Source: Patescibacteria group bacterium (GTDB taxonomy: Bacteria; Patescibacteriota; Patescibacteriia; Patescibacteriales; UBA12465). Taken from it: 62,811 nt of DNA. Under the pieces are notes generated by a model that ran no database searches, was not told the origin of the DNA, and worked only from the letters and a program-made list of their open reading frames with translations. Below, one piece after another: positions 21,816 through 53,970 of this stretch. Where the stretch lies: the NCBI GenBank assembly GCA_016938835.1, contig JAFGTW010000019.1:1-62811 (forward strand), written 5' to 3'. Every line of letters starts with the position of its first letter. The first letter of the stretch is position 1. The position numbers and the translations under genes are program-made.

Positions 21816-22038
21816 TTTTAATCGTAAACCTGGTGAAAGTTTTGAAAGTTTCTTGCGTAAATTTAAGAAGGGCTTAAAGAATAGTAAACGGCTTGAGAAG
21901 GCTCGTTCCACAAAACATTTAGCGCCCAAAAAGACCAAGCGTCAACAAAAAAACTATGCTTTAACTAGCTTAGTGATGCGACGCAAAAAAGAATTACTTC
22001 GCAAAACCGGTAAACTAGAAGAAACACAGAATCGTTAA
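21808..22038 (+). CDS. rpsU: 30S ribosomal protein S21
   Basis: 76 aa and very basic. ESFESFLRKFKK resembles the S21 ALRRFKR core. 8-nt overlap with hisS. Confidence 0.75.
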   Translation: MADFNRKPGESFESFLRKFKKGLKNSKRLEKARSTKHLAPKKTKRQQKNYALTSLVMRRKKELLRKTGKLEETQNR

Positions 22039-23558: not shown

Positions 23559-23583
23559 TTTGTTTTTATGTTTTAGCTCTTTA

Positions 23584-23592
23584 TGCTATAAT
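23584..23592 (+). promoter_or_regulatory. Extended -10 promoter element TGCTATAAT
   Basis: TGcTATAAT lies 58 nt upstream of the ATG at 23650. The same 9-mer recurs at 41282 and 48038. Confidence 0.4.
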
Positions 23593-23649
23593 AATTATAA
23601 CTGCTTAGCTTTTAAATTATACCATGCTTTGCGGTTCAATTAAAATAAA

Positions 23650-26331
23650 ATGAGTCGAAAATTATTATTTTTTTTAACGCCCCTTGTTGTTATAATAGGA
23701 CTTGGTCTGGCTACTTTTGCTTTGGCCCAAAACATTGATATTGGTACTAATGAAATTAGTAACGCAATTAGTTTAAGTGCAACTGACCCACGCATTATTA
23801 TTGCTAGAATAATTAATATTATTTTATTATTTTTAGGTGTAATTGCAGTTAGTCTGATAATTTATGCGGGTTTTATTTGGACAACAAGCGCTGGTAATGA
23901 TGAAAAAGTAGAAGAGGCTAAAAAAATATTAAAAAATGCAATTATTGGTTTAGTTATTATTTTATCTTCTTGGGGGATTGCGACTTTTGTATTAAATCGC
24001 TTAATAGGATCTACTGGCTCGGCTTCAATTTGGAATGCAAGCTCAAATAATATGCCATCATTAGTGGGAACTGGGGCCATCGGTGCCTGTACTATTGAAA
24101 GAGTATATCCTGAGAATAATCAAAGCAATGTTGCACGCAATACTTCAATTATTATTAGCTTTAAAGAGCCTTTACGTTTAGATAGTGTTTGTCAGGACTC
24201 AAATGCCAATAGCTGTGTTTGTGATGAAGCGAATTGCAAATATATTAATCCTGATGCTATTAGAATTTTTCGGGAAGATTTAGGCGATAGTTGTGATCTT
24301 GATGCCTGTCCGGGAGATAGTACCAATGTTAATCAGGCAATTATTAAGGCTTCTAGTGATCGTCGTACCTTTATTATTTCTCCCGAGAATTTATTAGGAG
24401 TACCAGAAGGTAATACAGATTATCAGGTTAAATTAACTAATGCTTTACTGAAAGATAATAATGACTCAGTTTTTAAAACTTGTAATAGTGACTATTTTCA
24501 GTGGGGCTTTGAGGTTAGCAATAATTTAGACTTAACGCCACCTCAGGTTATACGTGGCGGTATTTTCCCTTTGCCAGATAATGAGAAAGATATTATTGAA
24601 CAGTCAAGCGCAGCAGTCGCGGCTTCAGCCTTAATTCAGGTGAATGATTGTCCTAATATTTATAAAGAAGCTAGTATTATTAGCGTTACTCCAATGGTAG
24701 GAGGGCAATCTGCTTCGGCTGTAGTTGATGATAATTATCATGCCAGTCTTAATTCTTTCACGGTCGTTTCTTTAAGTGATAATAGTCAAGCACAATTATT
24801 TTCTGGACAAAATCTGTTAAGCGTGGGCGACTGGGAGGACAATCAAGTTAGTTTTACTGGATTTATAACTCTTGAAGTTAGCGCTCATGAGGCAGGCAAT
24901 TCTTGGTCAATCGCTGTTAGTCCGGAAATATTAGCAGATCAAATTACAGTGGGCGGTCAAATATATAGTTTTGCTATTAATGATATTGGTAATAATATTT
25001 CAGTTGATACTCTTAATGATACTTGTAGTCTTGAGGCTGTTGCTTCTTCCATTTATTTTAAATTAAGTGGCAATCCTTACATTAATGTTGATATTTCAGG
25101 AAGTAAAGTTATATTAGAGGCTAAAGTCGCCGGGACTGATGGAAATAATATTTTATTGACTAGTAGTAATCCTGTGGCTTTCAGTTTAAAACCTTTTAGC
25201 GGTGGGGTTAATTTAAAAAAAATTAATGAAACCAATGATCGTCAAGATCGTCCAATGAATTCGGTGATTCAGATTAATTTTAATGAAGCGATGAATCCTC
25301 TATTAGTTTCTGGTACGTCTGATGAAGTCAATGCGTATATTCGTGTTATTAATGCTGAAAATGCTGCCTTAGCTGAAGCTTCTTGCGCTCAGGATAGTGA
25401 TTGTCAATCGTATCAATGTGAAAACAGTGTTTGTATCGGTGACTATTTATCCGGCAAGTTTATGGTGTCTAATGCTTATAAAACAGTTGAGTTTATTTCT
25501 AATGAAGAATGTGGACAAAATGCTTGCGGGGAAACAATTTATTGTTTGCCGGCCAACAGTCATCTCGCAGTTGAGCTTGTATCTTCAAATTTAAAAACTT
25601 GTAATAGTGATGAGGATTGTGCTGATTTTACTCCTTTTTCTACTTGTGCTTCCTTTGCTGATTATAAGACATGTCAGGACACGAACAATAAAAATTACCC
25701 AGTTGCCGACGTGGCTAAATTAGATGGTATTATTGATGCTGCTTTAAATTCTATGGATGGTAATCGCGATGTTTTTGCTGATGGACCTTTGGCTTTTTAT
25801 AATGAAAATAACAATGAGGACTTAAATTTAAAAGATAAATATAAATGGTCTTTCTATATTAATGATCAAATCATGCTTGATCCTCCCTATATTACTTATA
25901 TTAATCCAGATAATAATAGCTTAGGGGTTGATATAAATATGCCGATACAGATAAATTTTAATACTTTAATGATGAATGATAGTTTGCGCACAGGTACAGA
26001 GCTTATTGATAATGGACAAACAATTATTGAACATCATTTATTAAATATTTTTAGTAGCATTCCAAGCCCTATTGGTTATTGGGTAACCGTCGAAAATCGT
26101 GATGTTTCTCCTTTGGATGGTGAACCTGATACTACTTATGCTTTTATTAGGCATAATGGTATGTCTCCATCAGCTAGTTACAAGAGTCAGGTTGGTTCTG
26201 GTGTTAAAGATATTTATCAGAATTGTTTTAAGCCTAGTGTTGGGCCTAATTGTATTGCCAACGACAGTAATCCTTCTTGTTGTTATGGATCAAATACAAA
26301 TTTATTAGGCAGTGATGGTAACTGTCAATAA
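23650..26331 (+). CDS. Large surface protein: VirB2/TrbC-like pilin hairpin fused to an Ig-like, Cys-rich ectodomain
   Basis: 893 aa. Signal peptide (..ATFALA|QN), two TM helices around the charged loop TSAGNDEKVEEAKKILKN, then three SbsA/Big_5-like segments (e.g. RNTSIIISFKEPL, NSVIQINFNEAMNP, MPIQINFNTLMMND) and Cys clusters. Confidence 0.85.
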   Translation: MSRKLLFFLTPLVVIIGLGLATFALAQNIDIGTNEISNAISLSATDPRIIIARIINIILLFLGVIAVSLIIYAGFIWTTSAGNDEKVEEAKKILKNAIIGLVIILSSWGIATFVLNRLIGSTGSASIWNASSNNMPSLVGTGAIGACTIERVYPENNQSNVARNTSIIISFKEPLRLDSVCQDSNANSCVCDEANCKYINPDAIRIFREDLGDSCDLDACPGDSTNVNQAIIKASSDRRTFIISPENLLGVPEGNTDYQVKLTNALLKDNNDSVFKTCNSDYFQWGFEVSNNLDLTPPQVIRGGIFPLPDNEKDIIEQSSAAVAASALIQVNDCPNIYKEASIISVTPMVGGQSASAVVDDNYHASLNSFTVVSLSDNSQAQLFSGQNLLSVGDWEDNQVSFTGFITLEVSAHEAGNSWSIAVSPEILADQITVGGQIYSFAINDIGNNISVDTLNDTCSLEAVASSIYFKLSGNPYINVDISGSKVILEAKVAGTDGNNILLTSSNPVAFSLKPFSGGVNLKKINETNDRQDRPMNSVIQINFNEAMNPLLVSGTSDEVNAYIRVINAENAALAEASCAQDSDCQSYQCENSVCIGDYLSGKFMVSNAYKTVEFISNEECGQNACGETIYCLPANSHLAVELVSSNLKTCNSDEDCADFTPFSTCASFADYKTCQDTNNKNYPVADVAKLDGIIDAALNSMDGNRDVFADGPLAFYNENNNEDLNLKDKYKWSFYINDQIMLDPPYITYINPDNNSLGVDINMPIQINFNTLMMNDSLRTGTELIDNGQTIIEHHLLNIFSSIPSPIGYWVTVENRDVSPLDGEPDTTYAFIRHNGMSPSASYKSQVGSGVKDIYQNCFKPSVGPNCIANDSNPSCCYGSNTNLLGSDGNCQ

Positions 26332-26393
26332 ATAATATAATATATAGAAAATTTAAAGTTATTAATTTAATCTAAAAATTTATTTTTAAATCT

Positions 26394-29300
26394 GTGTTGA
26401 AAAATAACAAGAATATTTTTAAATTTTTAGTGTTTACGCTTGTTTTGAGCTCAATAGTTGGTTTTGTTCAATTAGCTTCAGCTCAAATAAACGTTGGCAC
26501 TAATGAGATTGATAATAATATTAGTCTTAGTGCAAATGATCCACGAACAGTCGCTGCTCGTGTTATTAATATTGCTATGCTTTTCCTAGGCATTTTAGCG
26601 GTAGGAGTTATTGTTTGGGGTGGTTTTATTTGGATGACTTCAAATGGCGATGAGGAAAAAGTGGCACAAGCTAAAAAAATTCTTAAAAATGGTGTTATTG
26701 GTTTAGTTATTATTTTATCTTCTTGGGGTATTGCTACTTTCATTTTAAATCGTTTAATTAATTCAACTGGAAATAGTTCTAGCTCTTTTTCTTGTACTGA
26801 TAATCAGTCTTTAGCTTGTGGTTGTGGCGGCTCAATGACTTGTATTGGTGGTTCATGGGGGTCCTGTTTAGGTTCTAATTGTAGCAGCAGCAGTGGTCAA
26901 ACTAGTTGTGACAGCAGTCCTCTAAATGGTTGTCAGGCTAGTGATCAAATTTGTGCTGATAGCAGCTATTGTGATGCTGATACTTGTTCTTGCTTGCCTA
27001 AAGGCGAATTAGGTGATTCTTGTGATTTAAGTCCCGAGACAGCTACTTGTGAGATTAATAATAATTTTTGTTCTGAATATTTAACATGCAGTCCCGATTC
27101 TTGTACCTGTGAAGGCTCTCCGGTTATTACGGCTATTAGTCCGGCGGGAGGTTTTTGTGAAGAAGATATTAATAAAAGTTGTAATGGCGATGAGGAGTGT
27201 ATATTAAGTTGCAATTTAACAGACCCAAATGGGTCCGCGGGCAATATTGTTACTATTAGTGGGAGTAATTTTGGTTCTTATGATCCTTTAGTTAGTAAGG
27301 TTATTTTTGATGGCGACGCTGTGGGCATCATGCCCAGCGAGATTAATCCGGAATGTATTAATTCGTGGACAAATCATCAAATTATTGTAGCTTTGCCAGT
27401 TGATGTTCAAACGGGTCCAGTTACCGTCATTAGTGCTGATAATAAATCAGATGTTAGTAACGATAATTATGGTCCAGAGTTACCTGATTTTATTGTTAAT
27501 AATATTGCCCGACCGGGACTTTGTTTAGTGACTCCAGACGCTGGTCTTTTAAGTCAACAAGTTAATTATCAAGGTATCAATCTTTATGCTGGTGAAGCTT
27601 TCTTTGGCAGTTATAGTAAAAATGTAGCCGGACTTGATTCAGTTTTCACAAATCCGGCTGGCGTTGCTGGCACTAGCATTGTGCCAAATTTAAATGAAGG
27701 GAAAATGAGTAGTTTTGTGATGGCTTCTATTTCAGGTAATCAAGAAAAAAGTAATTATGTCACGTTTGTTAAAGAGCGAGAACCAAATACTGGACCTTAT
27801 ATTAGTTATTTTGAACCAGTAATTGGTCGAGCAGGGCAATATATTACTATTCATGGTGGTGGATTTGGCGGTGCTCAGGGTTACTCCAAGGTATTTTTTG
27901 GTGACGTTGAGGCCGATTATGATTTCCCGGCTGTTTGTGCAAATTCAGTTTGGCGTGATAAGCAAATTATTGTTAAAGTTCCAGCTGATGTGTCTGATGG
28001 CTCTTTTGAAATTAGAATTGAACTTAATGGTGAACAAATAAATTCACAAAATGCTAATCCCAATGTATTTACAGTTGATACTAATGAATCTTTAAAGACA
28101 AGTATTTGTAAAATTTCTCCTTCTCGGGGACAGATTGGCACTATTGTGAGTATTTGGGGTGAATATTTTGGTAAGAATAATGATAATGCTCTTGTTAGTT
28201 TTACTTATAATAAGACAACTAGTGCAATGATTAATAGTGATGACAATGATCAGCTGGCACAGTTACTTGAACCAAGTGTTCCTGATAATGCTACAACTGG
28301 TTCTCTCAAGGTTATTAAAAATAACGAATGGGGCAATGATGTTAATTTTGAAGTAGGTGTTTGCGTTGAAGATAGTGATTGTGGTGATGAAGTTTGTTGC
28401 CCTGTTAATACCTATAAACAGGGAGTTTGTGCGCCAACGCTGGCTTCCTGTTATGTTGATGTACCGACCTCAGTGTTTGAATGGGGGTTTTCTACTGGTT
28501 ATGGCGGTGGTGAAAATAATGTTGTTTATGATAGTTGTCAAGAAATGGCAAAGACATTAGGTGCTTGTCAAATTGGTTCATTTTGTCCTAATTCTCCCGG
28601 TCTATGTTCTCCGTATGCTGGAGGCGCTTTGAATTTAGGTTCATGTGATTCAACTTGTACTAGCGTTAATGCTTGTATAGGACAGACTTCGGGTTGTAGC
28701 TTTAATGGTGATATTGATACCTGCGTTTTAAATAATGCTATTTGCTCTCCAGATACTTCCTTTACTTATAATTTAAATAATTTAGAAATTAATACAAAGA
28801 AGGTTTGTAAATCTTTTTCCCAATTTGGTAATCAAAATCACTTTGAAATAAAAACTTCATCTTCATGTCCTCAAGATTGGACGCGATTAGATGGCGGTCG
28901 TTGTGTTGATAGTATCAGCTCAACTGAGTCTAGCTGTTCTATCTGTGTAACTGGTTTTACATGTTATGCAGAAGAAAATAGTGAGACTGGTGTTTGTATA
29001 AGTCCCGAGCTTTGTAAAGGTGCAGCTGAATGTCAGGGACAAACTTGTGTATCTCAAGAAGATGCTCATTGTGACTGTTGTTGTGAAATTGGAGAAGATG
29101 TTCGTGATTGTTGTGCTCCTTTAACTTGTAGTGGAACTTGTGGCAGTGATACTAGTAATGACGGAGTTGGCTTTGGCCAATGTTCCGGTTGCAGTATTAT
29201 TGATAATGGAATTGTTAATCAAGATTTATCCGATCAGGCTTGTAATTGTAGTACTAGTTCTGGTAAATATTGTGACACCACTATCCCTACTGGTACTTGT

Positions 29301-32249
29301 TTGGATTGCAGCTTACTGTCGGCTGATGCTTGTTTAGATCATAGTCAGGCATGTTGTCTAGATTCTAAGGGCACCAGTGATATTGGCGATGATGTTTGTG
29401 TTGGTGGCAATGGGCAAGCCATTACTAGCGATGAGATTAGTCCTGACTTTGGTTATTGTGCTCGTTATGATTGTAGCGCTAATCTTGACCAAACAAGTGA
29501 TGGCTTTTGTGCTTCAAGCACTCCTTTAAAGTTAGGATTTTTTAAGAGTATAGATAAATGTGAAGATACTTGTGAAGCTGGTGGTAATGATTCTATTTGT
29601 GGTCAGTATAACGGCGACTTAAGTTCTTGTAGTGCTAGTAGTGATTGTTGTTTTAATTTTAGTGATCAAAAATGTGAAGCTGGTGATAAAACCGCTGATG
29701 GTTATTGTACTTATTATGATTGTCAAGCCTCACCAAATGAGGGTAAATGCAATGCTAATCCTGCGGCTACTGGAACTTATAGCACTTATTTAGATTGTAA
29801 TATTGCTTGTTCTCAGCCATCCCTAGGTGGGCTAGGCAAGGATTGTCGTTCTATCGCTAGTTCCGCTACAGACTGTAACCAGTCTTTTTGTAGTTCTCCT
29901 TTTGCTTGTTTGAATGATGCTGGTACTATTGGATTACCAGGCAATTGTGGTACTTGCTGTTGTCAGGTAGATAATCCTTTATCTTGTGCCAATATAGGCA
30001 GTGGCAATTTAATTTGCCAACCAAATACAACTCCTTGCTCTGGAGATGATCGTGGTTTATGTTGTGGTTGTTCTGCGGATGATAATTGTGGCAATGTAAG
30101 TACTCTTGGTTGTGATTCTGGTGCTTGTTGTCGCGCCCGTCCGGCAGTTTTAACTAATCAATTAAATCCCGCCCACGGAGCTAGCAATGTTTGTCGCAAT
30201 GTTACTTTGCAAATCCCCTTCGATCAGTATATGGATATAAAAAGTCTTGAGGAGAATATCTTGTTGTTAGAGGAAATTAGTTATGGAAGTGGTGTTTGTC
30301 CTACGGGTACTTTTGTTGTTTCGGCTGAAGGTTTTCAGTACCAGCGTCAAAATTGGTTAGCGCGCAATATTGCAAAAATGAGTTATAAGTTTAGCAATCT
30401 CTTCCATCATTTAGGTTTATCTTCAGGGGTCGCTCTAGCCGGGATTCCTGATTCATCAAAACTTTATTGTTCTGTTCCTGGGTCGATATCATTAAGTCAA
30501 AGCGGTAATGGCAGTTTAGTTGAGTTCGCTCCTAAAAAGCTGCTTTCTCCTGGGTCTAATTATTATTTAGTCATAAAAGGTGATGAGGCCCTAGATAGTA
30601 ATACGGGCGTTTTAAGTCAATGGCAAATTGGTTTTAATGGCGATGGTTATTTAGATTTATCTTCTGGTACTTATACTGAAGGTGTAAATTTATCCTTTAA
30701 TAACTTAACATTTATTAATTCCTATATTGTAAATTTTACTACTCTATCTCAACAGGGCGCAAATGCAGGTGTATGCGCGGTTGACTATGTATTAGGTAGC
30801 CCAACATCTTATTTGTTTCAGACCACTGTAAATGATCTTAATGAAAATGATGCCGATATTTCTGCTAGTAATTTTGATACGGTCGCTGACAAAGATAAAC
30901 TTTTTACAGCCAATGCTTATAGTGCTGATGGTCAGATGCTTCATCCCACTTCAGCTTATTATTGGGACTGGAATTGGGATATTACTAAGCCAAACTTAGC
31001 AAGCATTTTAAATGTTAGTAGTTTAGCTGTAAATCAAGCTTTTGTTTCAGCTACTGATGGTGTTACTGATGATTCTGGCGTGTTAACTGCTCAAATTAAT
31101 ATGGATCGTTTTTCTGCTCCGGGCTGTAATGACGCCACTAATTGTGTTTGCGCTGAACCTGGCTGTTTTAATAATTGTTGTAATTTATATCAGGATGGTG
31201 ATGGTGCTAAAGCAAATATACCTCTATTTGTATTTATTTGTAAAAATCCTTGGCCGGCGGTTAATCAGAATGATTTAAGTTGGTCTCCTTGGTATGACAC
31301 CTGTGTTGGTGTTAGCAGCTCTGACTGCTCTAATTATAATTATAAGTTTTATTATTGTCGTGATGCCGGTACAGATTTATTAAGTGACGATTTGCCGGCT
31401 ATGATTAATCCAGCGATAATCAAAGGGGGAAGTGGTATTTTTACTTGTAGCGAGGGGCAAACTGCCTGTGAAATTAATGATGTTAATAAAGGTTTGTGCG
31501 GGCCAGATAATAATTTTGATGGAAATCCAGACGGTTTCTGTGTTTGGAGTGTTTTAAAGGAGTCTTATTTCTTTAAGGAAGAGGTGCCAACGGTGGGCGC
31601 TATTACCGCTGCTATTGATTTGGAAACTGGAAGTTCTGTTAGCCTAGAATGGTATGGAGATTCTAGTTTAATTTATAATGTTGATGCAAATAAGCTTGGT
31701 AAATATCGTATTTATTATACTTCAATAACATCTGGTAATACCGCTTTTATTGATGTTAAGCCGAATGATATTTTAGACGATAATATTAACACTGTATGTA
31801 CCCCCCTGCATCCAGTTAGTGGCTCAAATTATTCTTGTCATTATCAAATTGATAATTTAGTTACTGGTGACACTTATAGTTTTAAGGTTTCAGCTATATC
31901 TTTTACTCAAGTTGAAAGTGCTTTATTTGGTGGAAGATCAGTAACTCTGACCGACATGATGGCTCCAGAGAAACCTCTTGGCTTCCTTGCTTCTATTGCC
32001 ACTGATCAGCGTTTAAATTTTACTTGGTTAACCAATAATGATGATACGCGTTTTTATCGTTTGTATCACGGCATTAATTCTGGACAGTATGGAGAGTCTT
32101 TTGACTCGGATGATAATGCTACTTCTTTGGACCTGGATAGCAGACAATTTAGTGCAGGTACCCATTATTTTGCCTTATCAGCCATTGATAATGCGGGTAA
32201 TGAGAGTCTTAAATCAATAGAAGTCTCTATTATTATTCCAGTTCAATAA
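26394..32249 (+). CDS. Giant (1951 aa) cysteine-rich surface protein: pilin-like hairpin + IPT/TIG repeats + Cys-knot-like regions + two FN3 domains
   Basis: Non-ATG start (GTG 26394 or TTG 26397) is needed to include a signal peptide paralogous to ORF 23650. IPT-like GNIVTISGSNFG, GQYITIHGGGFGG, GTIVSIWGEYFG. FN3-like C-terminus (LNFTWL..YRLYHG..YFALSAIDNAGNES). Confidence 0.9.
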   Translation: MLKNNKNIFKFLVFTLVLSSIVGFVQLASAQINVGTNEIDNNISLSANDPRTVAARVINIAMLFLGILAVGVIVWGGFIWMTSNGDEEKVAQAKKILKNGVIGLVIILSSWGIATFILNRLINSTGNSSSSFSCTDNQSLACGCGGSMTCIGGSWGSCLGSNCSSSSGQTSCDSSPLNGCQASDQICADSSYCDADTCSCLPKGELGDSCDLSPETATCEINNNFCSEYLTCSPDSCTCEGSPVITAISPAGGFCEEDINKSCNGDEECILSCNLTDPNGSAGNIVTISGSNFGSYDPLVSKVIFDGDAVGIMPSEINPECINSWTNHQIIVALPVDVQTGPVTVISADNKSDVSNDNYGPELPDFIVNNIARPGLCLVTPDAGLLSQQVNYQGINLYAGEAFFGSYSKNVAGLDSVFTNPAGVAGTSIVPNLNEGKMSSFVMASISGNQEKSNYVTFVKEREPNTGPYISYFEPVIGRAGQYITIHGGGFGGAQGYSKVFFGDVEADYDFPAVCANSVWRDKQIIVKVPADVSDGSFEIRIELNGEQINSQNANPNVFTVDTNESLKTSICKISPSRGQIGTIVSIWGEYFGKNNDNALVSFTYNKTTSAMINSDDNDQLAQLLEPSVPDNATTGSLKVIKNNEWGNDVNFEVGVCVEDSDCGDEVCCPVNTYKQGVCAPTLASCYVDVPTSVFEWGFSTGYGGGENNVVYDSCQEMAKTLGACQIGSFCPNSPGLCSPYAGGALNLGSCDSTCTSVNACIGQTSGCSFNGDIDTCVLNNAICSPDTSFTYNLNNLEINTKKVCKSFSQFGNQNHFEIKTSSSCPQDWTRLDGGRCVDSISSTESSCSICVTGFTCYAEENSETGVCISPELCKGAAECQGQTCVSQEDAHCDCCCEIGEDVRDCCAPLTCSGTCGSDTSNDGVGFGQCSGCSIIDNGIVNQDLSDQACNCSTSSGKYCDTTIPTGTCLDCSLLSADACLDHSQACCLDSKGTSDIGDDVCVGGNGQAITSDEISPDFGYCARYDCSANLDQTSDGFCASSTPLKLGFFKSIDKCEDTCEAGGNDSICGQYNGDLSSCSASSDCCFNFSDQKCEAGDKTADGYCTYYDCQASPNEGKCNANPAATGTYSTYLDCNIACSQPSLGGLGKDCRSIASSATDCNQSFCSSPFACLNDAGTIGLPGNCGTCCCQVDNPLSCANIGSGNLICQPNTTPCSGDDRGLCCGCSADDNCGNVSTLGCDSGACCRARPAVLTNQLNPAHGASNVCRNVTLQIPFDQYMDIKSLEENILLLEEISYGSGVCPTGTFVVSAEGFQYQRQNWLARNIAKMSYKFSNLFHHLGLSSGVALAGIPDSSKLYCSVPGSISLSQSGNGSLVEFAPKKLLSPGSNYYLVIKGDEALDSNTGVLSQWQIGFNGDGYLDLSSGTYTEGVNLSFNNLTFINSYIVNFTTLSQQGANAGVCAVDYVLGSPTSYLFQTTVNDLNENDADISASNFDTVADKDKLFTANAYSADGQMLHPTSAYYWDWNWDITKPNLASILNVSSLAVNQAFVSATDGVTDDSGVLTAQINMDRFSAPGCNDATNCVCAEPGCFNNCCNLYQDGDGAKANIPLFVFICKNPWPAVNQNDLSWSPWYDTCVGVSSSDCSNYNYKFYYCRDAGTDLLSDDLPAMINPAIIKGGSGIFTCSEGQTACEINDVNKGLCGPDNNFDGNPDGFCVWSVLKESYFFKEEVPTVGAITAAIDLETGSSVSLEWYGDSSLIYNVDANKLGKYRIYYTSITSGNTAFIDVKPNDILDDNINTVCTPLHPVSGSNYSCHYQIDNLVTGDTYSFKVSAISFTQVESALFGGRSVTLTDMMAPEKPLGFLASIATDQRLNFTWLTNNDDTRFYRLYHGINSGQYGESFDSDDNATSLDLDSRQFSAGTHYFALSAIDNAGNESLKSIEVSIIIPVQ

Positions 32250-32267
32250 TGTTTTAAATATTAATAT

Positions 32268-35210
32268 ATGAAATTAAAAAAACATTTTATTTTAACTTTA
32301 CTGTTGTTATTGTTTTTTTCTTTTGTTTTTTTTAATCAAGTTAAGGCATTATCTGATTCAAATGAAGCTATTAATGAAAGCGATGCCATTGCTGTTAGAA
32401 TTTTACCTAATCCCAATCATTATAGTGCTGCTCGCTGGTATAAGAGTCAAGGTTTTTCTGGCTCCCCTCAGGCGTTATTAGTCGATTCATATGATGCTGT
32501 GCGTGATGGACGCACTGTTTATGTGAATGCCGCCAATATTAGTGGCAATACTATTTATACTAATATTTATTTGATTTCATATAATCAAGACCCAAATATA
32601 AAAACAGTTGATGTTTTGGGACAAATTGTTGATCACTGGCAGTTTAATAGTAATTTATCAGGAGTTGGTAGTTGTAGTATTTCAACTTTAAGTTGTAATG
32701 ATAATAATGAGTGCGGACAGGGTTTAGAATGCTCAAGTAATAGCAGTGCTTCTGGGCGCTGTCAATTAATAGAAAATGATAATTGCTATACTGATGATGA
32801 TTGTCCTCAGGGTTTATATTGTGATAATTTGAGATCAATGGTGGCTCGTGACGTTCGTCGTTTAGGTGTTTTGGGTAATTTAAGGGAAGCTCTAGCGGTC
32901 TTTAAGCAAATAAATAATAAATATCCAGTCTTAAGTGCTGGTACATATGTACCACTTAATTCTCTTTCAGTTTGGCCAAGTTGGCAGGCTTTATTCTTGC
33001 CTCAAATTGGTGTTTCTCAAAGAGAAATTGATTCAATAAATAGATTGGGTATTTGCGATGGTTTTGATAGTATTACTTGTTGGAATAAAGAGACTCAAAA
33101 TTTTGCTGACCCTCAACCAAATAATAGTACTTTGGAACTGCCAGCTAATAGTTACGTTTTTGCTTACAGTAGTGATAGTAATGGCTCTAATTATAATTTA
33201 TGTGCAGTTATGGAAACTAAAGCTCTTGGCTATAATACTGCTGAAGGGCAATTATCTAATTTAGGCTGTATTGCCAGTGGTTCTGGTTATACGGGTTATA
33301 GTAATAATTTAGCCCCCGTACTAATTGATACAAAGTTGTATGGTGAACAGAACCAAGAGTTTAATGGTTTTATTAAGGTTATCGATCCAGAAAATAATAG
33401 TTTAGATTGGTCAATTAATACTTCAGGAACTTGGGGTAATTGGAGCTCTGCTCCAATTTTGATGGATACTTATAATCCTAATCAGAAAAAAATATATGCA
33501 GTTAGAGCTGGAAATGTTGGTACATATAATCTTATTTTAAATGTAGTGGATTCAGAGGGAGCAATCATGTCCACAAATACTCCGATTGTTATTAGTAATA
33601 ATGAGCCTTTAATTCAATCTGATGATATTGATTATTATCCCAGTACAGTAATTCCTTTAGCTATTAACTTTAGTATTACTGACAAGGATTATCCTTTAAG
33701 TTACACAATTACCAAGTTTGAATACGATTCAGGTCCTTATGATTTGCTATCTTCGTCCAAATCCACTTTTTTGGGTGAAACCTCTCGTCGTAGCGGAGAT
33801 ACAACATATTACACACTAAAATACAGATTAAACACCTCAAATAAGTTTTTATCGGATACAGTTTTTGTTTATTCGATTTCAGCCAAAGATCACTATGGAA
33901 TGGAATCAACCAGAAAAGTGACAATTAATGTGAAAGTTGATCAGCCGATTTTAGATTTTAATTGTGCTAAAACAGTGCGAGTTGGCTCTGCTTATTATTG
34001 TGGTTTAGGTTGGCAAAAACAAGGAGATCACACTATTAATTATACTGTTGTTGGTTCTTTGCCAGATGGACTTAGTATTAGCAATTCTAGCAGTTTAGAT
34101 ATTTCATATAACGTAGAGCCAATCAATACTAAGCCTTGGCAGAAATTTCTTTCGTGGTTAGGAATAGAAAAAAATAATTTTTTATCTAGTGCTGAGGCTG
34201 CCGATGTGGCGTCCTATTATGCTTTACAAGGAACGCCTAACGTTTCTTCTGTAAACAATTTAATTAAGATTAAAGCTGAGAATGAATTTGGGGCTGTTTC
34301 TCAAAGAGAATTTAACCTTTCAATTAATAATTACTGTGGTGACGGTATTAGACAACAACCAAATTTGGAAGGCCGCGGTGGCTTCTATAATGATGGTCAA
34401 GAGAGTTGCGATGGCGATAGTAATATTGTGTTAAATAGGATTCAGATTCCCGCTAGTTCTGCGGATTTTCAATATGCTTGCACTACTAAGCCTGGAGATA
34501 TTGTTCCTTATCCTATTATGAATAATCAGTATTTTTGTACTTTTTCTGACGATCAATTAAACGGTGGTTTTTGTGGTGATGGTGTTTGCCAGTACTCCAT
34601 TGAGCGCAATGGTAACATTATACCTTGGGAAGGGGTTGGTTATTGTAATATTGATTGCGGTGATTGCGGTATAAATGCTTCTTATAACGGTAGCGATTGC
34701 GTTTGTAATTCTGGCTTTTATGATTGTTCGGCAGATATCTTGGGCTGTGAAAGTAGTAGTCAGTGTGGTGATGCCTGCCCTTCTGGGCAATATGAATGTG
34801 ATGGAAAATGTGTGATTGAAAACGATCTTTCTCCGGCTTGCGACTCTATTAGCCAGTGCAGCTCAAGCCTTAAAGGCGATTGTTCATATTGTGAGACAGG
34901 TTATTATAATTGTGATTATTCAGGTGAATGTGAATCATTTGGAGTTTGTACTTGCCCAGCTGGCACTAGTTGGAATAAAGCTGTTTGGCCATACGGCCAA
35001 TGCGTAGTTGATAATATTGGCTGCACCAGTGAAGAAGGTCTTTGTGGTAATCAGTGTTATGATTTAAAGACGGAAAAGTGTTGTGATGCTGATTCTAGTT
35101 CGGTATGTCCAACAAATAAATATTGTTGTTTAGTCGGCGATAATAATGTGTGTTCTTATAACGCGCTTCAGTGTCAAAAACTTAAGGATGCCTTCTCTAC
35201 TATTAAGTAG
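32268..35210 (+). CDS. Large (980 aa) secreted cysteine-rich protein
   Basis: Signal peptide MKLKKHFILTLLLLLFFSFVFFNQVKA. CGDG..ESCDGD and FCGDGVCQ repeats resemble the CxxCGDG cysteine-rich repeat. Dense Cys in the last ~300 aa. Confidence 0.85.
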   Translation: MKLKKHFILTLLLLLFFSFVFFNQVKALSDSNEAINESDAIAVRILPNPNHYSAARWYKSQGFSGSPQALLVDSYDAVRDGRTVYVNAANISGNTIYTNIYLISYNQDPNIKTVDVLGQIVDHWQFNSNLSGVGSCSISTLSCNDNNECGQGLECSSNSSASGRCQLIENDNCYTDDDCPQGLYCDNLRSMVARDVRRLGVLGNLREALAVFKQINNKYPVLSAGTYVPLNSLSVWPSWQALFLPQIGVSQREIDSINRLGICDGFDSITCWNKETQNFADPQPNNSTLELPANSYVFAYSSDSNGSNYNLCAVMETKALGYNTAEGQLSNLGCIASGSGYTGYSNNLAPVLIDTKLYGEQNQEFNGFIKVIDPENNSLDWSINTSGTWGNWSSAPILMDTYNPNQKKIYAVRAGNVGTYNLILNVVDSEGAIMSTNTPIVISNNEPLIQSDDIDYYPSTVIPLAINFSITDKDYPLSYTITKFEYDSGPYDLLSSSKSTFLGETSRRSGDTTYYTLKYRLNTSNKFLSDTVFVYSISAKDHYGMESTRKVTINVKVDQPILDFNCAKTVRVGSAYYCGLGWQKQGDHTINYTVVGSLPDGLSISNSSSLDISYNVEPINTKPWQKFLSWLGIEKNNFLSSAEAADVASYYALQGTPNVSSVNNLIKIKAENEFGAVSQREFNLSINNYCGDGIRQQPNLEGRGGFYNDGQESCDGDSNIVLNRIQIPASSADFQYACTTKPGDIVPYPIMNNQYFCTFSDDQLNGGFCGDGVCQYSIERNGNIIPWEGVGYCNIDCGDCGINASYNGSDCVCNSGFYDCSADILGCESSSQCGDACPSGQYECDGKCVIENDLSPACDSISQCSSSLKGDCSYCETGYYNCDYSGECESFGVCTCPAGTSWNKAVWPYGQCVVDNIGCTSEEGLCGNQCYDLKTEKCCDADSSSVCPTNKYCCLVGDNNVCSYNALQCQKLKDAFSTIK

Positions 35211-35242
35211 GTTAATTTTTAATTGTATTAATTAATAAAATT

Positions 35243-35506
35243 ATGAAAAGGTCTTATATAAATTCAATTAGGTGGGTGTTATTGTTGGCCTTGTTGTTCG
35301 TTTTGGTTTTTATTTTTTGGAATTTATTATTAAAAAAATCTACACCTAATAATTCTGAGATCATTTTTATAAATAATAATCAGCCAATATTGATGAATAT
35401 TGATGAAAAAAATGAATTAGGAATTCCTGAAAATATGTCTGTAGAAATTTTGAATCGTACTCAAGATGGTCAAATAACCACCTATAAGTTAATAAAAGAT
35501 AATTAA
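35243..35506 (+). CDS. Small N-terminally anchored protein
   Basis: 87 aa with one TM (WVLLLALLFVLVFIFWNLLL). Lies inside the surface-protein block. Confidence 0.5.
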   Translation: MKRSYINSIRWVLLLALLFVLVFIFWNLLLKKSTPNNSEIIFINNNQPILMNIDEKNELGIPENMSVEILNRTQDGQITTYKLIKDN

Positions 35507-35531
35507 ACAATAAAAAGGTTTTATTATTTAA

Positions 35532-35561
35532 TTGGGATTATTTGTAAAAATTCGCTATAAT
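35532..35561 (+). promoter_or_regulatory. Sigma70-like promoter candidate
   Basis: TTGGGA, 18 nt, TATAAT (35556-35561), upstream of the ATG at 35598. Confidence 0.45.
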
Positions 35562-35597
35562 ATAATTAATTAATAATATTCATAAATTTTTAAATCT

Positions 35598-36341
35598 ATG
35601 TTTGATAATTTAGACAAACAAACTTCCAATGTTTCTGGCGAAAAGGCTGTAGATGATATTTTTGCTGAAACTGAAGGGAGTCAAATAGCTGGTGCTGAAC
35701 TTAAGTCTGGTAATATTGAGGCCCAGTCAGCTGGACTAGCTTCTCATTCTTATGACGAAGAAGCCAATGAACATTCTGAAAAATCAGCTTTTAAATACAA
35801 AAATTTGGTCATAATTTCGTTTTCGTTGCTTATTTTAGTAGCTTTAGCTTATTTGGTTTATGTTAAATTTTTAAGCACGCCTAAGCCAGCTGAACAGTCA
35901 ATGGTTGATAACGCAAAAATAAGTGATAATGAGTTAAATAATGCTATTATTCCAAGCGTTAATCAACAAGAAACTAATATCATGAATGAAAAAAATAATA
36001 ATCAAGGGTCTATTGTTGAGCCAATGGTTGGTGAAAATCGCGTAGTTGAGCCAGTTGATAACGCTAGTATGACCGATACTGTTATAGAGGAAAATCCAGC
36101 AATTCCAGTTGTAACAGCGCCGGTTGATTCTGACGCCGATAGTTTAACTGATATGGAAGAGATTTCTTTAGGTACAAATATTAATTTAATTGACTCCGAT
36201 TTTGATGGCTTATCTGATTATGAGGAGGTAAGAGTATACTATACCAATCCTTTGAATGCTGATACGGATGGAGACGGTTATACGGATGGGAGTGAGATTC
36301 AAAATGGTTATAATCCTAATGGTGAGGGTATTTTACAATAA
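35598..36341 (+). CDS. Single-pass membrane protein with thrombospondin-type-3-like Ca-binding repeats
   Basis: TM (LVIISFSLLILVALAYLVYV), then DSDADSLTDMEE, DSDFDGLSDYEE, DTDGDGYTDGSE, NGYNPNG. Confidence 0.8.
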   Translation: MFDNLDKQTSNVSGEKAVDDIFAETEGSQIAGAELKSGNIEAQSAGLASHSYDEEANEHSEKSAFKYKNLVIISFSLLILVALAYLVYVKFLSTPKPAEQSMVDNAKISDNELNNAIIPSVNQQETNIMNEKNNNQGSIVEPMVGENRVVEPVDNASMTDTVIEENPAIPVVTAPVDSDADSLTDMEEISLGTNINLIDSDFDGLSDYEEVRVYYTNPLNADTDGDGYTDGSEIQNGYNPNGEGILQ

Positions 36342-36350
36342 TAATTATTT

Positions 36351-36542: not shown

Positions 36543-36551
36543 TTATTCAAA

Positions 36552-37583
36552 ATGGAACTAAATAAGGAGATTAAAATTAAAAAATCAACAGATAATCTAC
36601 AACAAAGGTTACAGGATGATTTTGTAGTTAAAAATATGCCATCTTTTAGTAGTTTAAGTGCTACTAGCTATGAAGGGGAAGAAGATGTTGATGCAAATAA
36701 AAATAATCACTCACTGTTTAAAAATAAAGCAAGCAAGGTTAATTCTCCTAAATTAATTGGTCTAATTATTATTAGTGTTGGCATTTTAGTTATTTTCGTG
36801 CTTTTTTATTTAGCTTATCGCTTTTTAATAGTACCCTCAATGACACCTTCAATTACACCAGAAATGACTAATAATAATCAAAATAATCTGGTTACAGTTG
36901 TAGCATCGACAGACTCTGTGGTGGAGCCTTTGATTAATAATGATGAAGAGACGGCCTCTTCTACTGTTGATGTTATTGCCGTTGAAGTGGTTTCTGGGGA
37001 AGTTGTGGAAGAAAAAGATAATTTAGTTTTGCCAACAGTTGTAGATAGCGATAGTGATGGATTAAGCGATGCCGCTGAATTATTCTTAGGAACAAATACT
37101 CAGTTAAGCGATACGGATAATGACGGTTATTCGGATTTTGAAGAAATTAATAGTGGGTATAATCCTAATGGGGCTGGTAAATTGGAGGAAAATAATAATT
37201 TAGCCTTATTCTCTAATACCGCTAGTGGTTTTGCGGTTATTTATCCTCATGATTGGGAGATTAATATTGTTTCTCCGGATTCAACTTTATTTTCAGCACC
37301 AAACACTTCTTTTATTCAAATATCAAGAGAAAATAGTGATCAAATTAATTCTGATATTATTAGTTGGTACCAAGAACAGTTTGGTGACATAGATGTACTC
37401 AGTCAGGATCGTTTTATTGATAGTAATTTTGGGCCAGGTATTGTTAGTGCAGATGGTCAAATTATTTATTTTTTAGGACCAGATAACCGTAGTATTTATG
37501 TTATTTCTTATATTAAGTCTGATGATTCAGCTCCTTATATAGAAATATTTAGAATGATGGCTAGCACATTAATGCCTTTATAA
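36552..37583 (+). CDS. Single-pass membrane protein with TSP3-like Ca-binding repeats plus a C-terminal globular domain
   Basis: TM (LIGLIIISVGILVIFVLFYLAY), DSDSDGLSDAAE, DTDNDGYSDFEE, SGYNPNG. Paralogous to ORF 35598 across the repeat region. Confidence 0.8.
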   Translation: MELNKEIKIKKSTDNLQQRLQDDFVVKNMPSFSSLSATSYEGEEDVDANKNNHSLFKNKASKVNSPKLIGLIIISVGILVIFVLFYLAYRFLIVPSMTPSITPEMTNNNQNNLVTVVASTDSVVEPLINNDEETASSTVDVIAVEVVSGEVVEEKDNLVLPTVVDSDSDGLSDAAELFLGTNTQLSDTDNDGYSDFEEINSGYNPNGAGKLEENNNLALFSNTASGFAVIYPHDWEINIVSPDSTLFSAPNTSFIQISRENSDQINSDIISWYQEQFGDIDVLSQDRFIDSNFGPGIVSADGQIIYFLGPDNRSIYVISYIKSDDSAPYIEIFRMMASTLMPL

Positions 37584-37600
37584 ATTTATTTCAAAAAATA

Positions 37601-37634
37601 AAAAACTCGTATCAAAGAAGATCGAGTTTTTTTT
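37601..37634. terminator. Bidirectional terminator-like hairpin
   Basis: A-tract, ctcg(t)atc-aaagaa-gatcgag, T8 tract. Lies between convergent ORF 36552 (+) and clpP (-). Confidence 0.65.
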
Positions 37635-37659
37635 GTGCCTATTTTTAAGAGAGGGTATT

Positions 37660-53966: not shown

Positions 53967-53970
53967 GTTT

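What the first reader, a model, noticed from the sequence alone, without database searches (positions are those of the whole stretch)
23650..26762. VirB2/TrbC-like pilin hairpin used as the N-terminal module of two huge ectodomain proteins
Seen in sequence: the first ~120 aa of ORF 23650 and ORF 26394 are clear paralogs. Compare QNIDIGTNEISNAISLSATDPR..GFIWTTSAGNDEKVEEAKKILKNAIIGLVIILSSWGIATFVLNRL with QINVGTNEIDNNISLSANDPR..GFIWMTSNGDEEKVAQAKKILKNGVIGLVIILSSWGIATFILNRL. Each has a cleavable signal peptide, TM1, a short charged loop and TM2. A 34-nt run is identical in both genes by my alignment (23942-23975 = 26695-26728), although the downstream ectodomains are unrelated. Established knowledge: signal peptide plus two TM helices joined by a charged loop is the architecture of VirB2/TrbC conjugative pilins, and small T4SS-pilin-like proteins are common in CPR genomes. 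Inference: here the pilin module is fused to ~770-aa and ~1830-aa extracellular regions. It may anchor or polymerise giant adhesins, for example as pilus-tip or pilus-decorating subunits. The identical nucleotide run suggests gene conversion or strong constraint on TM2.
Basis: partly seen in the sequence, partly recalled or inferred. Interest (0 to 1): 0.75.

Follow-up and report, generated by a model that had tools for sequence, protein, structure and literature searches.

The report
T4SS-type pilin fused to giant adhesins
Two neighbouring genes of an ultra-small (Patescibacteria/Falkowbacteria-type) bacterium each begin with a complete conjugation-type (VirB2-like) pilin and continue into a 770- or 1820-residue adhesin-like outer part. 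This conserved but undescribed design gives the first concrete candidates for how these bacteria's enigmatic type IV secretion apparatus could grip a host cell.

Summary
ORF A (23650-26331, 893 aa) and ORF B (26394-32249, 1951 aa) share a ~120-aa N-terminal module: signal peptide, TM1, charged loop, TM2. The module is 71% identical between them and contains an exact 34-nt identical run.

The module matches Pfam T4SS_pilin (PF18895) above the curated cut-off in both proteins. It is 50-64% identical to ~126-aa stand-alone 'pilins' of Patescibacteria. 21 of 49 of those relatives also hit canonical TrbC/VirB2.

The fusion is real and old:
- At least 253 species-level genomes encode ORF A relatives.
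- The tandem A-B pair is kept in 71 of 80 loci, in the fixed order HisRS-RelA-A-B-C-TSP3.

The hairpin is the most conserved part of the protein. The A and B modules co-vary within lineages (67% identity in the same genome, 56% across genomes). The ectodomains are Ig-like/TIG/Cys-rich with no other hydrophobic segment.

Best reading: these are 'modular T4SS pilins', adhesin ectodomains carried on a functional VirB2-like hairpin. They probably dock into or cap the assembly formed by the small pilins. Co-assembly, and even the existence of a pilus, remain unshown. No T4SS machinery lies next to the genes.

This is a new variant of a known kind.

The parts
23650..26331 (+). ORF A, 893 aa: signal peptide + VirB2-like pilin hairpin + linker + Ig-like/beta-rich ectodomain
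   Evidence: ORF. Pfam PF18895 and PF13205. At least 279 orthologs of about 890 aa with the same architecture. AF2 model.
23650..23727 (+). ORF A signal peptide (aa 1-26, ALA|Q)
   Evidence: Hydrophobic segment 1-31. AXA motif read from sequence. Least conserved part of the family, 0.36. Cleavage is inferred.
23728..24009 (+). ORF A pilin module (aa 27-120): acidic outer N-segment with a DPR motif, TM1, Lys-rich loop, TM2
   Evidence: PF18895 at aa 50-114, 39.6 bits. NF045849 41.1 bits. Helices 47-79 and 84-121. Most conserved region of the family, 0.67-0.72.
24085..24468 (+). ORF A Big_5 bacterial Ig-like domain (aa 146-273)
   Evidence: Pfam PF13205, E=4e-15. Beta strands in the model.
24592..25239 (+). 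ORF A confident beta-rich domain (aa 315-530, pLDDT about 90), no family assignment
   Evidence: AF2. Only generic Ig/cadherin/CopC-like fold matches.
26394..32249 (+). ORF B, 1951 aa: signal peptide + VirB2-like pilin hairpin + Cys-rich/TIG/Big_5 ectodomain (124 Cys)
   Evidence: ORF. Pfam PF18895, TIG x3, Big_5. Orthologs of 1500-2330 aa directly after A in 71 of 80 loci.
26394..26483 (+). ORF B signal peptide (aa 1-30, ASA|Q)
   Evidence: Hydrophobic segment 7-32. AXA motif read from sequence. Cleavage is inferred.
26484..26762 (+). ORF B pilin module (aa 31-123)
   Evidence: PF18895 at aa 52-117, 50.7 bits. AF2 hairpin H50-82/H87-126 with pLDDT 81-94. 50-64% identity to stand-alone pilins.
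23942..23975 (+). 34-nt run in TM2 of A, identical to 26695-26728
   Evidence: Exact match, maximal. P=2.5e-4 / 0.007.
26695..26728 (+). 34-nt run in TM2 of B, identical to 23942-23975
27795..28067 (+). Best of three IPT/TIG domains in ORF B (aa 468-558)
   Evidence: Pfam PF01833, E=2.4e-14, 3 stretches.
30159..30320 (+). Big_5 Ig-like domain in ORF B (aa 1256-1309)
   Evidence: Pfam PF13205, 28.2 bits against cut-off 23.6.
32268..35210 (+). ORF C, 980 aa: signal peptide + Cys-rich secreted protein, no pilin module. Conserved third gene of the cluster, 18 nt after B.
   Evidence: ORF. No Pfam or NCBIfam hit. Follows B in 54 loci. A C-like region is fused behind A/B-like regions and one pilin module in P0284.
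35598..36341 (+). TSP3-repeat (Ca-binding type) protein, conserved downstream neighbour
   Evidence: PF18884. Present downstream in 39 loci. Membership in the system is inferred from synteny only.
36552..37583 (+). Second TSP3-repeat protein, conserved downstream neighbour
   Evidence: PF18884. Synteny in 33 loci.
52119..53966 (+). VirD4/T4CP-like ATPase with a C-terminal CxxC-x17-CxxC zinc ribbon. The only T4SS-family gene in the window; its link to A/B is unproven.
   Evidence: PF10412, PF02534, PF12696, PF23477. NCBIfam hits all lie far below their cut-offs.

Best explanation
A and B are 'modular T4SS pilins'.

Shown:
- Each starts with a full copy of the Patescibacteria VirB2-like pilin (PF18895), comprising signal peptide, acidic outer N-segment with a DPR motif, TM1, Lys-rich loop and TM2.
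- The module is joined by a poorly conserved Ser/Gly/Asn linker to a long, acidic, Cys-rich chain of Ig-like/TIG/beta-sandwich domains with no further membrane segment.
- The architecture, the A-B tandem and the A-B-C-TSP3 gene order are conserved across hundreds of Falkowbacteria/ABY1-type genomes.
- The hairpin is the best-conserved part and keeps the residues that are invariant in the small pilins.
- The hairpins of A and B change together within lineages.

Inferred:
- The proteins are exported by Sec and cleaved by signal peptidase I.
- They sit in the membrane with the N-terminus and ectodomain outside and the loop inside.
- The hairpin is more than an anchor. It is recognised by the same VirB4-dependent apparatus and packs against the same stand-alone pilins, which are encoded elsewhere in arrays.
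- A and B are therefore carried on that assembly, most plausibly as its first-incorporated, distal (tip) subunits.
- There the ectodomains, possibly together with ORF C and the TSP3 proteins, bind the host-cell surface.
- In effect they would replace the VirB5 or PrgB adhesins that these systems lack.
For: Identity of the module:
- PF18895 above its cut-off in both proteins and NF045849 in A.
- 50-64% identity over about 95% of the module to ~126-aa proteins that sources name 'pilin'.
- 21 of 49 of these also hit TrbC/VirB2, best E=4e-9.
- The closest one (P0015) is the first gene of a six-gene pilin array in a genome that also carries the A-B pair.

The fusion is real and conserved:
- At least 279 orthologs with the same two Pfam domains.
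- 253 species-level genomes.
- A+B tandem in 71 of 80 loci, with fixed synteny.

The module looks functional rather than a plain anchor:
- TM1/loop/TM2 column identity is 0.67-0.72, against 0.44-0.61 for ectodomain regions and 0.38 for the linker.
- Own-genome A-B identity is 0.669 against 0.562 across genomes. The own-genome partner ranks 1st of 71 in 28 genomes and in the top 3 in 45.
- The excess is strongest in the outer N-segment and at W83/G84 of TM2.
- Stand-alone pilins of three genomes rank 1st-8th of 71 against their own A/B.

Outside location and adhesin character:
- Hydropathy, charges and Cys content.
- Big_5 and TIG domains.
- Ig/cadherin-like fold matches.

Functional linkage of A, B and C: P0284 joins one module with A-like, B-like and C-like regions.

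Machinery in the lineage: four of five named genomes with the A gene are VirB4-positive in Table S1 of PMC12102498.

Literature context:
- Pilin arrays are essential in S. epibionticum (PMC10633639).
- No adhesin has been found for these T4SSs (PMC12102498).
- Modular pilins capping type IV pili are a precedent (PMC8179133).
Against: - No VirB4/B3/B6/B8 gene or small pilin lies in the 62.8-kb window or within 10 kb of the pilin array examined. The cluster sits among housekeeping genes.
- No one has shown that Patescibacteria VirB2-like proteins form a pilus; this is only hypothesised (PMC12857230).
- A and B do not hit TrbC/VirB2 directly.
- The profile against PDB sequences gives VirB2 only E=1, and the fold search gives only generic hairpins.
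- An 80-200 kDa ectodomain on a subunit would be sterically excluded from the shaft of a VirB2-type helix, and it would have to cross the cell wall.
- Co-variation can be produced by gene conversion without any shared partner. Long identical runs occur in several genomes (68, 53, 44 and 34 nt).
- A subclade has A without an adjacent B.
Confidence: 0.45

Rival explanations
1. Anchor only. An ancestral pilin gene was fused to surface-protein genes, and its hairpin now serves merely as a stable two-helix membrane anchor. This suits an organism without sortase-type anchoring in these proteins. A and B are ordinary surface adhesins or S-layer-associated fibrils that never interact with T4SS components.
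For: - No T4SS genes are nearby; the context is housekeeping.
- The ectodomains look like generic adhesin stalks.
- No C-terminal anchor or other hydrophobic segment exists, so the N-terminal hairpin is the only tether.
- The within-genome similarity of the A and B hairpins can be explained by gene conversion: identical runs of 34-68 nt in several genomes.
Against: - A mere anchor is not expected to be the most conserved region.
- It would not be expected to keep the extracellular DPR segment, the loop and all residues invariant in free pilins.
- The synonymous-site excess within genomes is only about 10-15% above the cross-genome control, whereas the amino-acid co-variation is large.
- The same module recurs on different ectodomains and in multi-hairpin proteins.
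Confidence: 0.3
2. In-membrane oligomer. PF18895 hairpins do not leave the membrane. Instead they assemble side by side into a ring or bundle, a channel or platform of the T4SS. A and B are subunits of that membrane complex, and their ectodomains form its extracellular crown.
For: - The representative search found many single polypeptides with 2-17 tandem hairpins and no internal signal peptides, e.g. P0178 with 6 and P0187 with 17. This shows that neighbouring hairpins lie side by side with termini on the same side.
- No pilus has yet been observed for these systems.
- The hairpin is highly conserved and co-varies between A and B.
Against: - Homology through PF04956-positive relatives is to proteins that do form extracellular pili.
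- The tandem-hairpin proteins were not examined at DNA level and could also represent covalently linked filament subunits.
- There is no structural evidence either way.
Confidence: 0.15
3. Artefact. The long ORFs arise from a sequencing or assembly error that joins a small pilin gene to a downstream gene, or the Pfam hit is a compositional false positive on hydrophobic helices.
For: Transmembrane helices do give spurious low-level hits; several unrelated membrane families appear at E of 1e-3 to 1.
Against: - The same in-frame fusion occurs twice in the window and in independent assemblies of 71-253 species.
- Identity to true small pilins is 50-64% and includes non-hydrophobic segments, with E down to 2e-37.
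- Standard code 11 gives uninterrupted ORFs throughout the window.
Confidence: 0.01

Closest known systems
Patescibacteria VirB2-like pilins and pilin arrays (Pfam PF18895; Wang et al. 2023, PMC10633639; Quinonero-Coronel et al. 2025, PMC12102498)
   Same: - Same sequence family: 50-64% identity and above the Pfam cut-off.
- Same signal peptide, two-helix hairpin, loop and DPR segment.
- Same phylum.
- Paralogs sit in tandem.
- Relatives form 2-11-gene arrays.
   Different: - Known members are treated as small proteins of about 100-150 aa and are often near virB4.
- A and B carry 770- and 1820-aa ectodomains.
- They lie in a housekeeping neighbourhood without T4SS genes.
- They are far more conserved between species than array pilins. 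A orthologs are 47-83% identical, against an average of 25% within arrays.
Modular type IV pilins (PilB/PilC of Streptococcus sanguinis, CofB, TcpB, ComZ, GspK; Raynaud et al. 2021, PMC8179133)
   Same: Same design logic. An N-terminal pilin 'carrier' module is joined by a linker to bulky adhesin-type 'effector' modules, with predicted or shown tip location. Such pilins are common in CPR genomes.
   Different: - The pilin superfamily and machine are unrelated: type IV filament with class III signal peptide, prepilin peptidase and a single N-terminal helix.
- A and B have an AXA-type signal peptide and a two-helix VirB2-type hairpin. They have no G|FTLxE motif and no N_methyl hit.
- The resemblance is an analogy, not membership.
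Canonical TrbC/VirB2/TraA conjugative pilins (PF04956; F, T, RP4 and R388 pili)
   Same: - Long signal peptide cleaved by signal peptidase I, two hydrophobic helices, basic loop, both termini outside.
- A transitive sequence link exists through small relatives.
   Different: - No direct HMM hit for A or B. The PDB VirB2 match is only E=1, and the fold search is inconclusive.
- To my knowledge, canonical pilins are not fused to large domains, and some are cyclised head to tail. A C-terminal ectodomain would preclude cyclisation.
T4SS adhesins: VirB5/TraC at the pilus tip (diderms) and PrgB-type cell-wall-anchored adhesins (monoderm conjugation)
   Same: The proposed role is the same: target-cell contact for a T4SS. 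VirB5 is the first-assembled, tip-located subunit (PMC12857230).
   Different: - No sequence similarity was found, with no VirB5 or PrgB family hits.
- There is no LPXTG or C-terminal anchor.
- Here the adhesin would be covalently part of a pilin.
Mbov_0395 / ICE_MMCAP2_0565 pilin-like conjugal transfer protein of Mycoplasma ICEs (NCBIfam NF045849)
   Same: The hairpin matches this 80-position model: A 41.1 bits (cut-off 40) and B 37.3 bits. It is also from wall-less or monoderm T4SSs of the MPF-FATA type.
   Different: Those are small stand-alone proteins on mobile elements. A and B are chromosomal, giant and not on an ICE.

Membership tests
Pfam PF18895 T4SS_pilin (Patescibacteria VirB2-like pilins) | Profile HMM score above the curated gathering cut-off (26.6 bits) | tested here: met
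   A 39.6 bits (aa 50-114) and B 50.7 bits (aa 52-117). Isolated modules score 45.1 and 55.3 bits.
Pfam PF18895 T4SS_pilin (Patescibacteria VirB2-like pilins) | Signal peptide followed by two hydrophobic helices joined by a short charged loop | tested here: met
   Hydropathy and charges. AF2 hairpins. Alignment with 16 stand-alone pilins.
Pfam PF18895 T4SS_pilin (Patescibacteria VirB2-like pilins) | Small stand-alone protein (about 100-150 aa) ending shortly after TM2 | tested here: not met
   A is 893 aa and B is 1951 aa. Stand-alone relatives end at '...ATG(N)', exactly where the A/B linker begins.
Pfam PF18895 T4SS_pilin (Patescibacteria VirB2-like pilins) | Encoded in or near a virB4-containing T4SS cluster or pilin array | tested here: not met
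   No VirB4/B3/B6/B8 and no small pilin in the 62.8-kb window. Only a T4CP-like gene lies about 20 kb downstream. At genome level, relatives are VirB4-positive according to PMC12102498 Table S1.
Pfam PF18895 T4SS_pilin (Patescibacteria VirB2-like pilins) | Assembly by a T4SS into an extracellular filament | not testable with these tools
   Not demonstrated for any member of the family; only hypothesised (PMC12857230).
TrbC/VirB2 conjugative pilins (Pfam PF04956) | Profile HMM match | tested here: not met
   No PF04956 hit for A, B or their isolated modules at E<=1. 21 of 49 close small relatives do match, best E=4.3e-9, so the link is transitive only.
TrbC/VirB2 conjugative pilins (Pfam PF04956) | Fold similarity to solved pilins (VirB2, TraA, TrhA) | tested here: inconclusive
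   Foldseek on the module model gave only generic helical hairpins, best E=0.43, with no pilin in the top 50. The sequence profile against PDB gave VirB2 8cue at E=1.
NCBIfam NF045849 Mbov_0395 family pilin-like conjugal transfer protein | Score above the curated cut-off (40 bits) | tested here: inconclusive
   A 41.1 bits (passes narrowly) and B 37.3 bits (fails narrowly). This is an equivalog model for small ICE proteins, so A and B are at most domain-level relatives.
Modular type IV pilins (type IV filament superfamily) | Class III signal peptide / N-methylation motif (G|F/M-T-L-x-E) and a single hydrophobic N-terminal helix | tested here: not met
   The motif is absent from the N-termini (sequence). 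There is no N_methyl or pilin-type Pfam hit. Two TM helices follow an AXA signal peptide.
VirB5/TraC-type or PrgB/LPXTG-type T4SS adhesins | Family HMM match, or C-terminal LPXTG sorting signal with a TM segment | tested here: not met
   No such Pfam or NCBIfam hits. No C-terminal hydrophobic segment. C-termini read ...GSDGNCQ (A) and ...SIIIPVQ (B).

The most novel reading that the evidence does not exclude
A and B, possibly as a mixed first layer, are the nucleating tip subunits of a VirB2-type pilus built by a monoderm Patescibacteria T4SS. They would be the functional replacement for VirB5 and the host-recognition device of the epibiont. The lineage-specific co-variation of the A, B and small-pilin hairpins would then reflect a shared subunit-subunit interface. 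This would be the first 'modular pilin' of the T4SS pilin superfamily. It would also be indirect genomic evidence that these bacteria really extrude a conjugative-type pilus.
Probability: 0.3. Interest if true: 0.8.

Novelty: new variant of a known kind. Interest (0 to 1): 0.6.

Why it matters
The T4SS of Patescibacteria is essential for epibiotic growth in the one species tested. Its function is unknown, no pilus has been seen, and the published survey detected no adhesin.

A conserved family in which the VirB2-like pilin itself carries 770- to more than 3000-residue adhesin-type ectodomains gives concrete, testable candidates for the host-contact element. It also offers a handle to ask whether the 'pilins' polymerise. 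The large ectodomains could be tagged and would be visible in cryo-ET.

It extends the 'carrier module plus effector module' principle, known for type IV pilins, to the unrelated T4SS pilin superfamily.

The proteins are currently auto-annotated only as 'Ig-like domain-containing protein', 'pilin' or hypothetical. HMM surveys that assume small pilins count them without noticing their size.

Tried and rejected
- Fold search of the full ORF A model against PDB returned only generic Ig-like, cadherin, CopC and Fab hits, with no specific function.
- Fold search of the module model returned generic helical hairpins such as SK channel, HR1, ATP synthase c and 14-3-3. It cannot confirm or refute a VirB2 fold.
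- The profile of the module against PDB sequences gave VirB2 (8cue/8fai) only at E=1.
- Extending the genomic context beyond both window edges by exact-protein look-up failed, because the source contigs on record are 3-17 kb and end inside the window.
- The promoter/terminator scan of 23400-37700 gave counts no higher than in shuffles and no terminator between A, B and C. The operon is inferred only from the 62-nt and 18-nt gaps.
- Strong ongoing gene conversion is rejected as the sole cause of A-B similarity. The within-genome same-codon excess is 1.06-1.26 times the codon-usage expectation, but the cross-genome control already gives 0.93-1.17. The net excess is about 10-15%.
- An alternative genetic code or read-through as the cause of the fusion is rejected. 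Code 11 gives intact genes across the window, and the fusion is conserved.
- Six literature searches found no description of VirB2-like pilins fused to large ectodomains. The nearest concept is modular type IV pilins. The library lacks most subscription journals, so absence is not proof.


Full report
**1. Observation**

The two ORFs are real. A is 23650-26331 (+, 893 aa) and B is 26394-32249 (+, 1951 aa, GTG start). They are separated by 62 nt. ORF C (32268-35210, 980 aa) follows after 18 nt.

The N-termini are clear paralogs:
- BLASTP gives E=4e-44.
- In the ungapped 95-residue core, 67 aa and 198 of 285 nt are identical.
- The 34-nt run 23942-23975 = 26695-26728 is exact and maximal.

The run is more than chance. 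Back-translating both peptides independently with the window's codon usage gives a run of 34 nt or more in 0.025% of 20,000 trials. Keeping the observed number of matching synonymous sites and permuting their positions gives 0.7%.

Each protein has only three hydrophobic segments: signal peptide, TM1 and TM2. AXA-type cleavage motifs are present (ALA|Q in A, ASA|Q in B). The outer segment before TM1 is acidic, and the loop carries four Lys. Nothing hydrophobic occurs in the remaining 768 or 1823 residues.

AlphaFold models show a helical hairpin: A 47-79/84-121 and B 50-82/87-126 with pLDDT 81-94. Beyond about residue 215 the two proteins have no significant similarity, although both contain a Big_5 domain.

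**2. What the module is**

- Pfam T4SS_pilin (PF18895) matches both proteins above its gathering score: 39.6 and 50.7 bits against 26.6.
- NCBIfam NF045849, the 'Mbov_0395 family pilin-like conjugal transfer protein' of Mycoplasma ICEs, gives 41.1 bits for A (cut-off 40) and 37.3 for B.
- A search with the B module returned 57 proteins of 87-222 aa. All are PF18895-positive and most are 50-64% identical over about 95% of the query. Several are named 'pilin [Patescibacteria group bacterium]'.
- In an alignment, the free pilins end at '...ATG(N)', exactly where the Ser/Gly/Asn linker of A and B begins.
- 21 of 49 of these relatives also match canonical TrbC/VirB2 (PF04956, best E=4.3e-9). A and B themselves do not.
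- Sequence and fold comparisons with solved pilins were inconclusive. VirB2 8cue scored E=1, and the fold search returned only generic hairpins.
- The closest free pilin, P0015, is the first gene of a six-gene array of small pilins in a genome that also has the A-B pair. No virB4 lies within 10 kb of that array.

**3. The fusion is conserved, not an artefact**

- A full-length search with ORF A found at least 279 proteins. The best 120 are 870-921 aa, apart from one truncated sequence. They are 47-83% identical, and 119 of the 120 carry PF18895 plus PF13205 (the exception is the truncated one, which has PF13205 only).
- A scan of one genome per species found 253 genomes encoding a relative. 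All informative titles are Falkowbacteria, Patescibacteria or Parcubacteria.
- In 71 of 80 loci, A is followed directly by a 1500-2330-aa protein that also starts with the module.
- The order HisRS - RelA(-) - A - B - C - TSP3-repeat protein is kept across these species.
- In a small subclade, A is followed instead by a RecA-like gene (RecA judged by eye from the sequence).
- The window contains no other copy of the module.

**4. Evidence that the hairpin is more than an anchor**

Within the A family the mean pairwise column identity differs by region:

| Region | Identity |
|---|---|
| TM1 | 0.67 |
| Loop | 0.68 |
| TM2 | 0.72 |
| Ectodomain regions | 0.44-0.61 |
| Linker | 0.38 |
| Signal peptide | 0.36 |

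Residues invariant in free pilins are invariant in A as well. Examples are L62, G63, G74, G82 and I99-G100-L101-V102.

The A and B modules co-vary across 71 genomes:
- Own-genome A-B identity is 0.669 on average, against 0.562 for A of one genome versus B of another.
- The own-genome B is the best match of 71 in 28 genomes and in the top three in 45.
- The nearest neighbour of a module is nevertheless usually its ortholog.
- The excess is greatest in the outer N-terminal segment (columns 4-20), at G27, and at W83/G84 in TM2.

Synonymous-site matching gives a weaker signal:
- Within genomes it is 1.06-1.26 times the codon-usage expectation.
- Distant cross-genome pairs already give 0.93-1.17, and TM2 has a position-specific codon preference.
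- The net within-genome excess is therefore only about 10-15%.
- Long identical runs occur sporadically at different positions: 68, 53, 44 and 34 nt.

I read this as occasional short gene-conversion tracts on top of protein-level co-evolution. The two cannot be fully separated here.

The free first-array pilins of three genomes rank 1st to 8th of 71 in identity to their own genome's A and B. This is suggestive, but n=3.

**5. Ectodomains and partners**

- A has a Big_5 Ig-like domain (aa 146-273), a confident beta-rich domain (aa 315-530, pLDDT about 90) and further beta domains.
- The fold search gave only generic Ig-like, cadherin-like and CopC-like matches.
- B has three TIG domains, a Big_5 domain and 124 Cys.
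- All three proteins are acidic and rich in Ser and Asn.
- The representative search with the module profile found 89,917 cluster representatives at E<=1e-3.
- Among the best 150 are single-module N-terminal fusions of 885 aa (A type), 1800, 1819 and 1941 aa (B type), and 3354 aa.
- The 3354-aa protein P0284 joins one module to Big_5/Big_7 (A-like), TIG (B-like) and a region homologous to ORF C (E=6e-41). This is a Rosetta-stone argument that A, B and C act together.
- P0320 combines the module with PKD domains, so the module pairs with different adhesin-type domains.

**6. Context and literature**

The window is chromosomal and dominated by housekeeping genes: GyrA, RuvB, QueA, LepB, HisRS, RelA, ClpP, SecDF, FtsA/Z and NrdD. 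It contains no VirB4, VirB3, VirB6 or VirB8. The only T4SS-family gene is a VirD4-like ATPase with a zinc ribbon at 52119-53966. The literature considers such genes widespread, usually unlinked to virB4, and possibly exapted (PMC12102498).

What the papers say:
- That paper reports VirB2-like pilins in 1,948 VirB4-positive assemblies and 441 arrays of 2-11 pilin genes. It found no adhesins, and it treats pilins as small proteins.
- Its Table S1 lists four of five named genomes carrying the A gene (three of them with B adjacent) as VirB4-positive.
- In Southlakia epibionticum the pilin array is essential (PMC10633639).
- A pilus is only hypothesised (PMC12857230).
- Modular type IV pilins, an unrelated superfamily, are an established precedent for a pilin carrier plus adhesin module located at the filament tip. 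They are common in CPR (PMC8179133).
- I found no paper describing VirB2-type pilins fused to large ectodomains.

**7. Mechanism**

Shown: a complete, strongly conserved VirB2-like pilin hairpin is covalently followed by an extracellular adhesin-type chain. This holds in two adjacent paralogous genes across hundreds of species, and the two hairpins co-vary.

Inferred:
- Export by Sec and cleavage by signal peptidase I.
- N-out / loop-in / C-out topology.
- Recognition of the hairpin by the T4SS pilin-handling machinery.
- Packing against the small pilins.
- Placement of A and B on that assembly. The distal end is most plausible, because a VirB2-type filament grows from its base and bulky subunits cannot fit in the shaft.
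- Binding of the host surface by the ectodomains, perhaps with ORF C and the Ca-binding TSP3 proteins.

I put about 0.45 on this explanation. I put 0.3 on a pure-anchor explanation. I put 0.15 on an in-membrane ring or platform, which the tandem multi-hairpin polyproteins make conceivable.

**8. Verdict**

The functional reading is plausible but untested.

The family is present in databases but is effectively undescribed. It is a new variant (modular, giant) of a known kind (Patescibacteria VirB2-like pilins).

Interest is 0.6. This is a specific, testable lead on the missing adhesin and on whether a pilus exists in an essential but enigmatic system. It rests so far on sequence inference only.

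Noticed in passing
window 52119-53966 (+): A stand-alone VirD4/TraD-like coupling-protein ATPase (TrwB_AAD_bind, T4SS-DNA_transf, TraG-D_C). It has a C-terminal CxxC-x17-CxxC treble-clef zinc finger and is followed by an RNase T-like exonuclease (53899-54546). No other T4SS gene is nearby. All NCBIfam conjugation models score far below their cut-offs.
   Followed up: partly
proteins P0178, P0187, P0194 and many others (not in the window): The highest-scoring matches to the pilin-module profile are single polypeptides with 2-17 tandem pilin hairpins. Where inspected (P0178, P0187) they have no internal signal peptides. They may be genuine poly-pilin proteins or gene-calling artefacts. They bear on whether these 'pilins' leave the membrane.
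   Followed up: partly
protein P0284 (3354 aa; not in the window): A Rosetta-stone protein. One pilin module is followed by Big_5/Big_7, TIG and B-like regions, and by a region homologous to window ORF C (E=6e-41). It links A, B and C functionally.
   Followed up: partly
window TM2-coding segments 23938-24003 and 26682-26753; loci L004-L083: The TM2 codons of the module match between distant genomes about 1.17-1.19 times more often than codon usage predicts. This holds for A-A, B-B and A-B pairs, and indicates a position-specific codon preference or nucleotide-level constraint in this segment.
   Followed up: partly
loci L056, L061, L064, L068, L070, L079: In one subclade, ORF A is followed by a RecA-like gene instead of ORF B. 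A therefore occurs without an adjacent B there. Whether B lies elsewhere in these genomes is unknown.
   Followed up: no
locus L083 10001-12668: The ORF A ortholog is split into a 116-aa pilin-module ORF and an 813-aa ectodomain ORF. This is a frameshift, pseudogene or sequencing error, or a natural 'unfused' state.
   Followed up: no
window 43634-44440 (+), with 41313-43628 and 10366-11622: A prepilin peptidase (A24 family, PilD-like) sits directly after a 771-aa Wzy_C/O-antigen-ligase-like protein with C-terminal TPR repeats, and before FtsA/FtsZ. A second Wzy_C protein lies at 10366-11622. The type IV pilus machinery is thus also represented in the window.
   Followed up: no
window 21808-22038 (+): A conserved, very basic 76-aa ORF overlaps the end of HisRS and is also called in L001. 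By eye it resembles ribosomal protein S21. This was not verified.
   Followed up: no
record titles of loci L006, L010, L014-L016 and many others: Many MAGs carrying this Patescibacteria-type locus are titled 'uncultured Gammaproteobacteria bacterium' or 'Bacillota bacterium' in their public records. These are probably placeholder or wrong taxonomic labels.
   Followed up: no
window 35598-36341 and 36552-37583 (+): Two secreted proteins carrying a bacterial thrombospondin type-3 (Ca-binding) repeat show weak similarity to the Myxococcus cell-cohesion/gliding proteins MtsD and CglD. They are conserved downstream of A-B-C in many genomes.
   Followed up: partly
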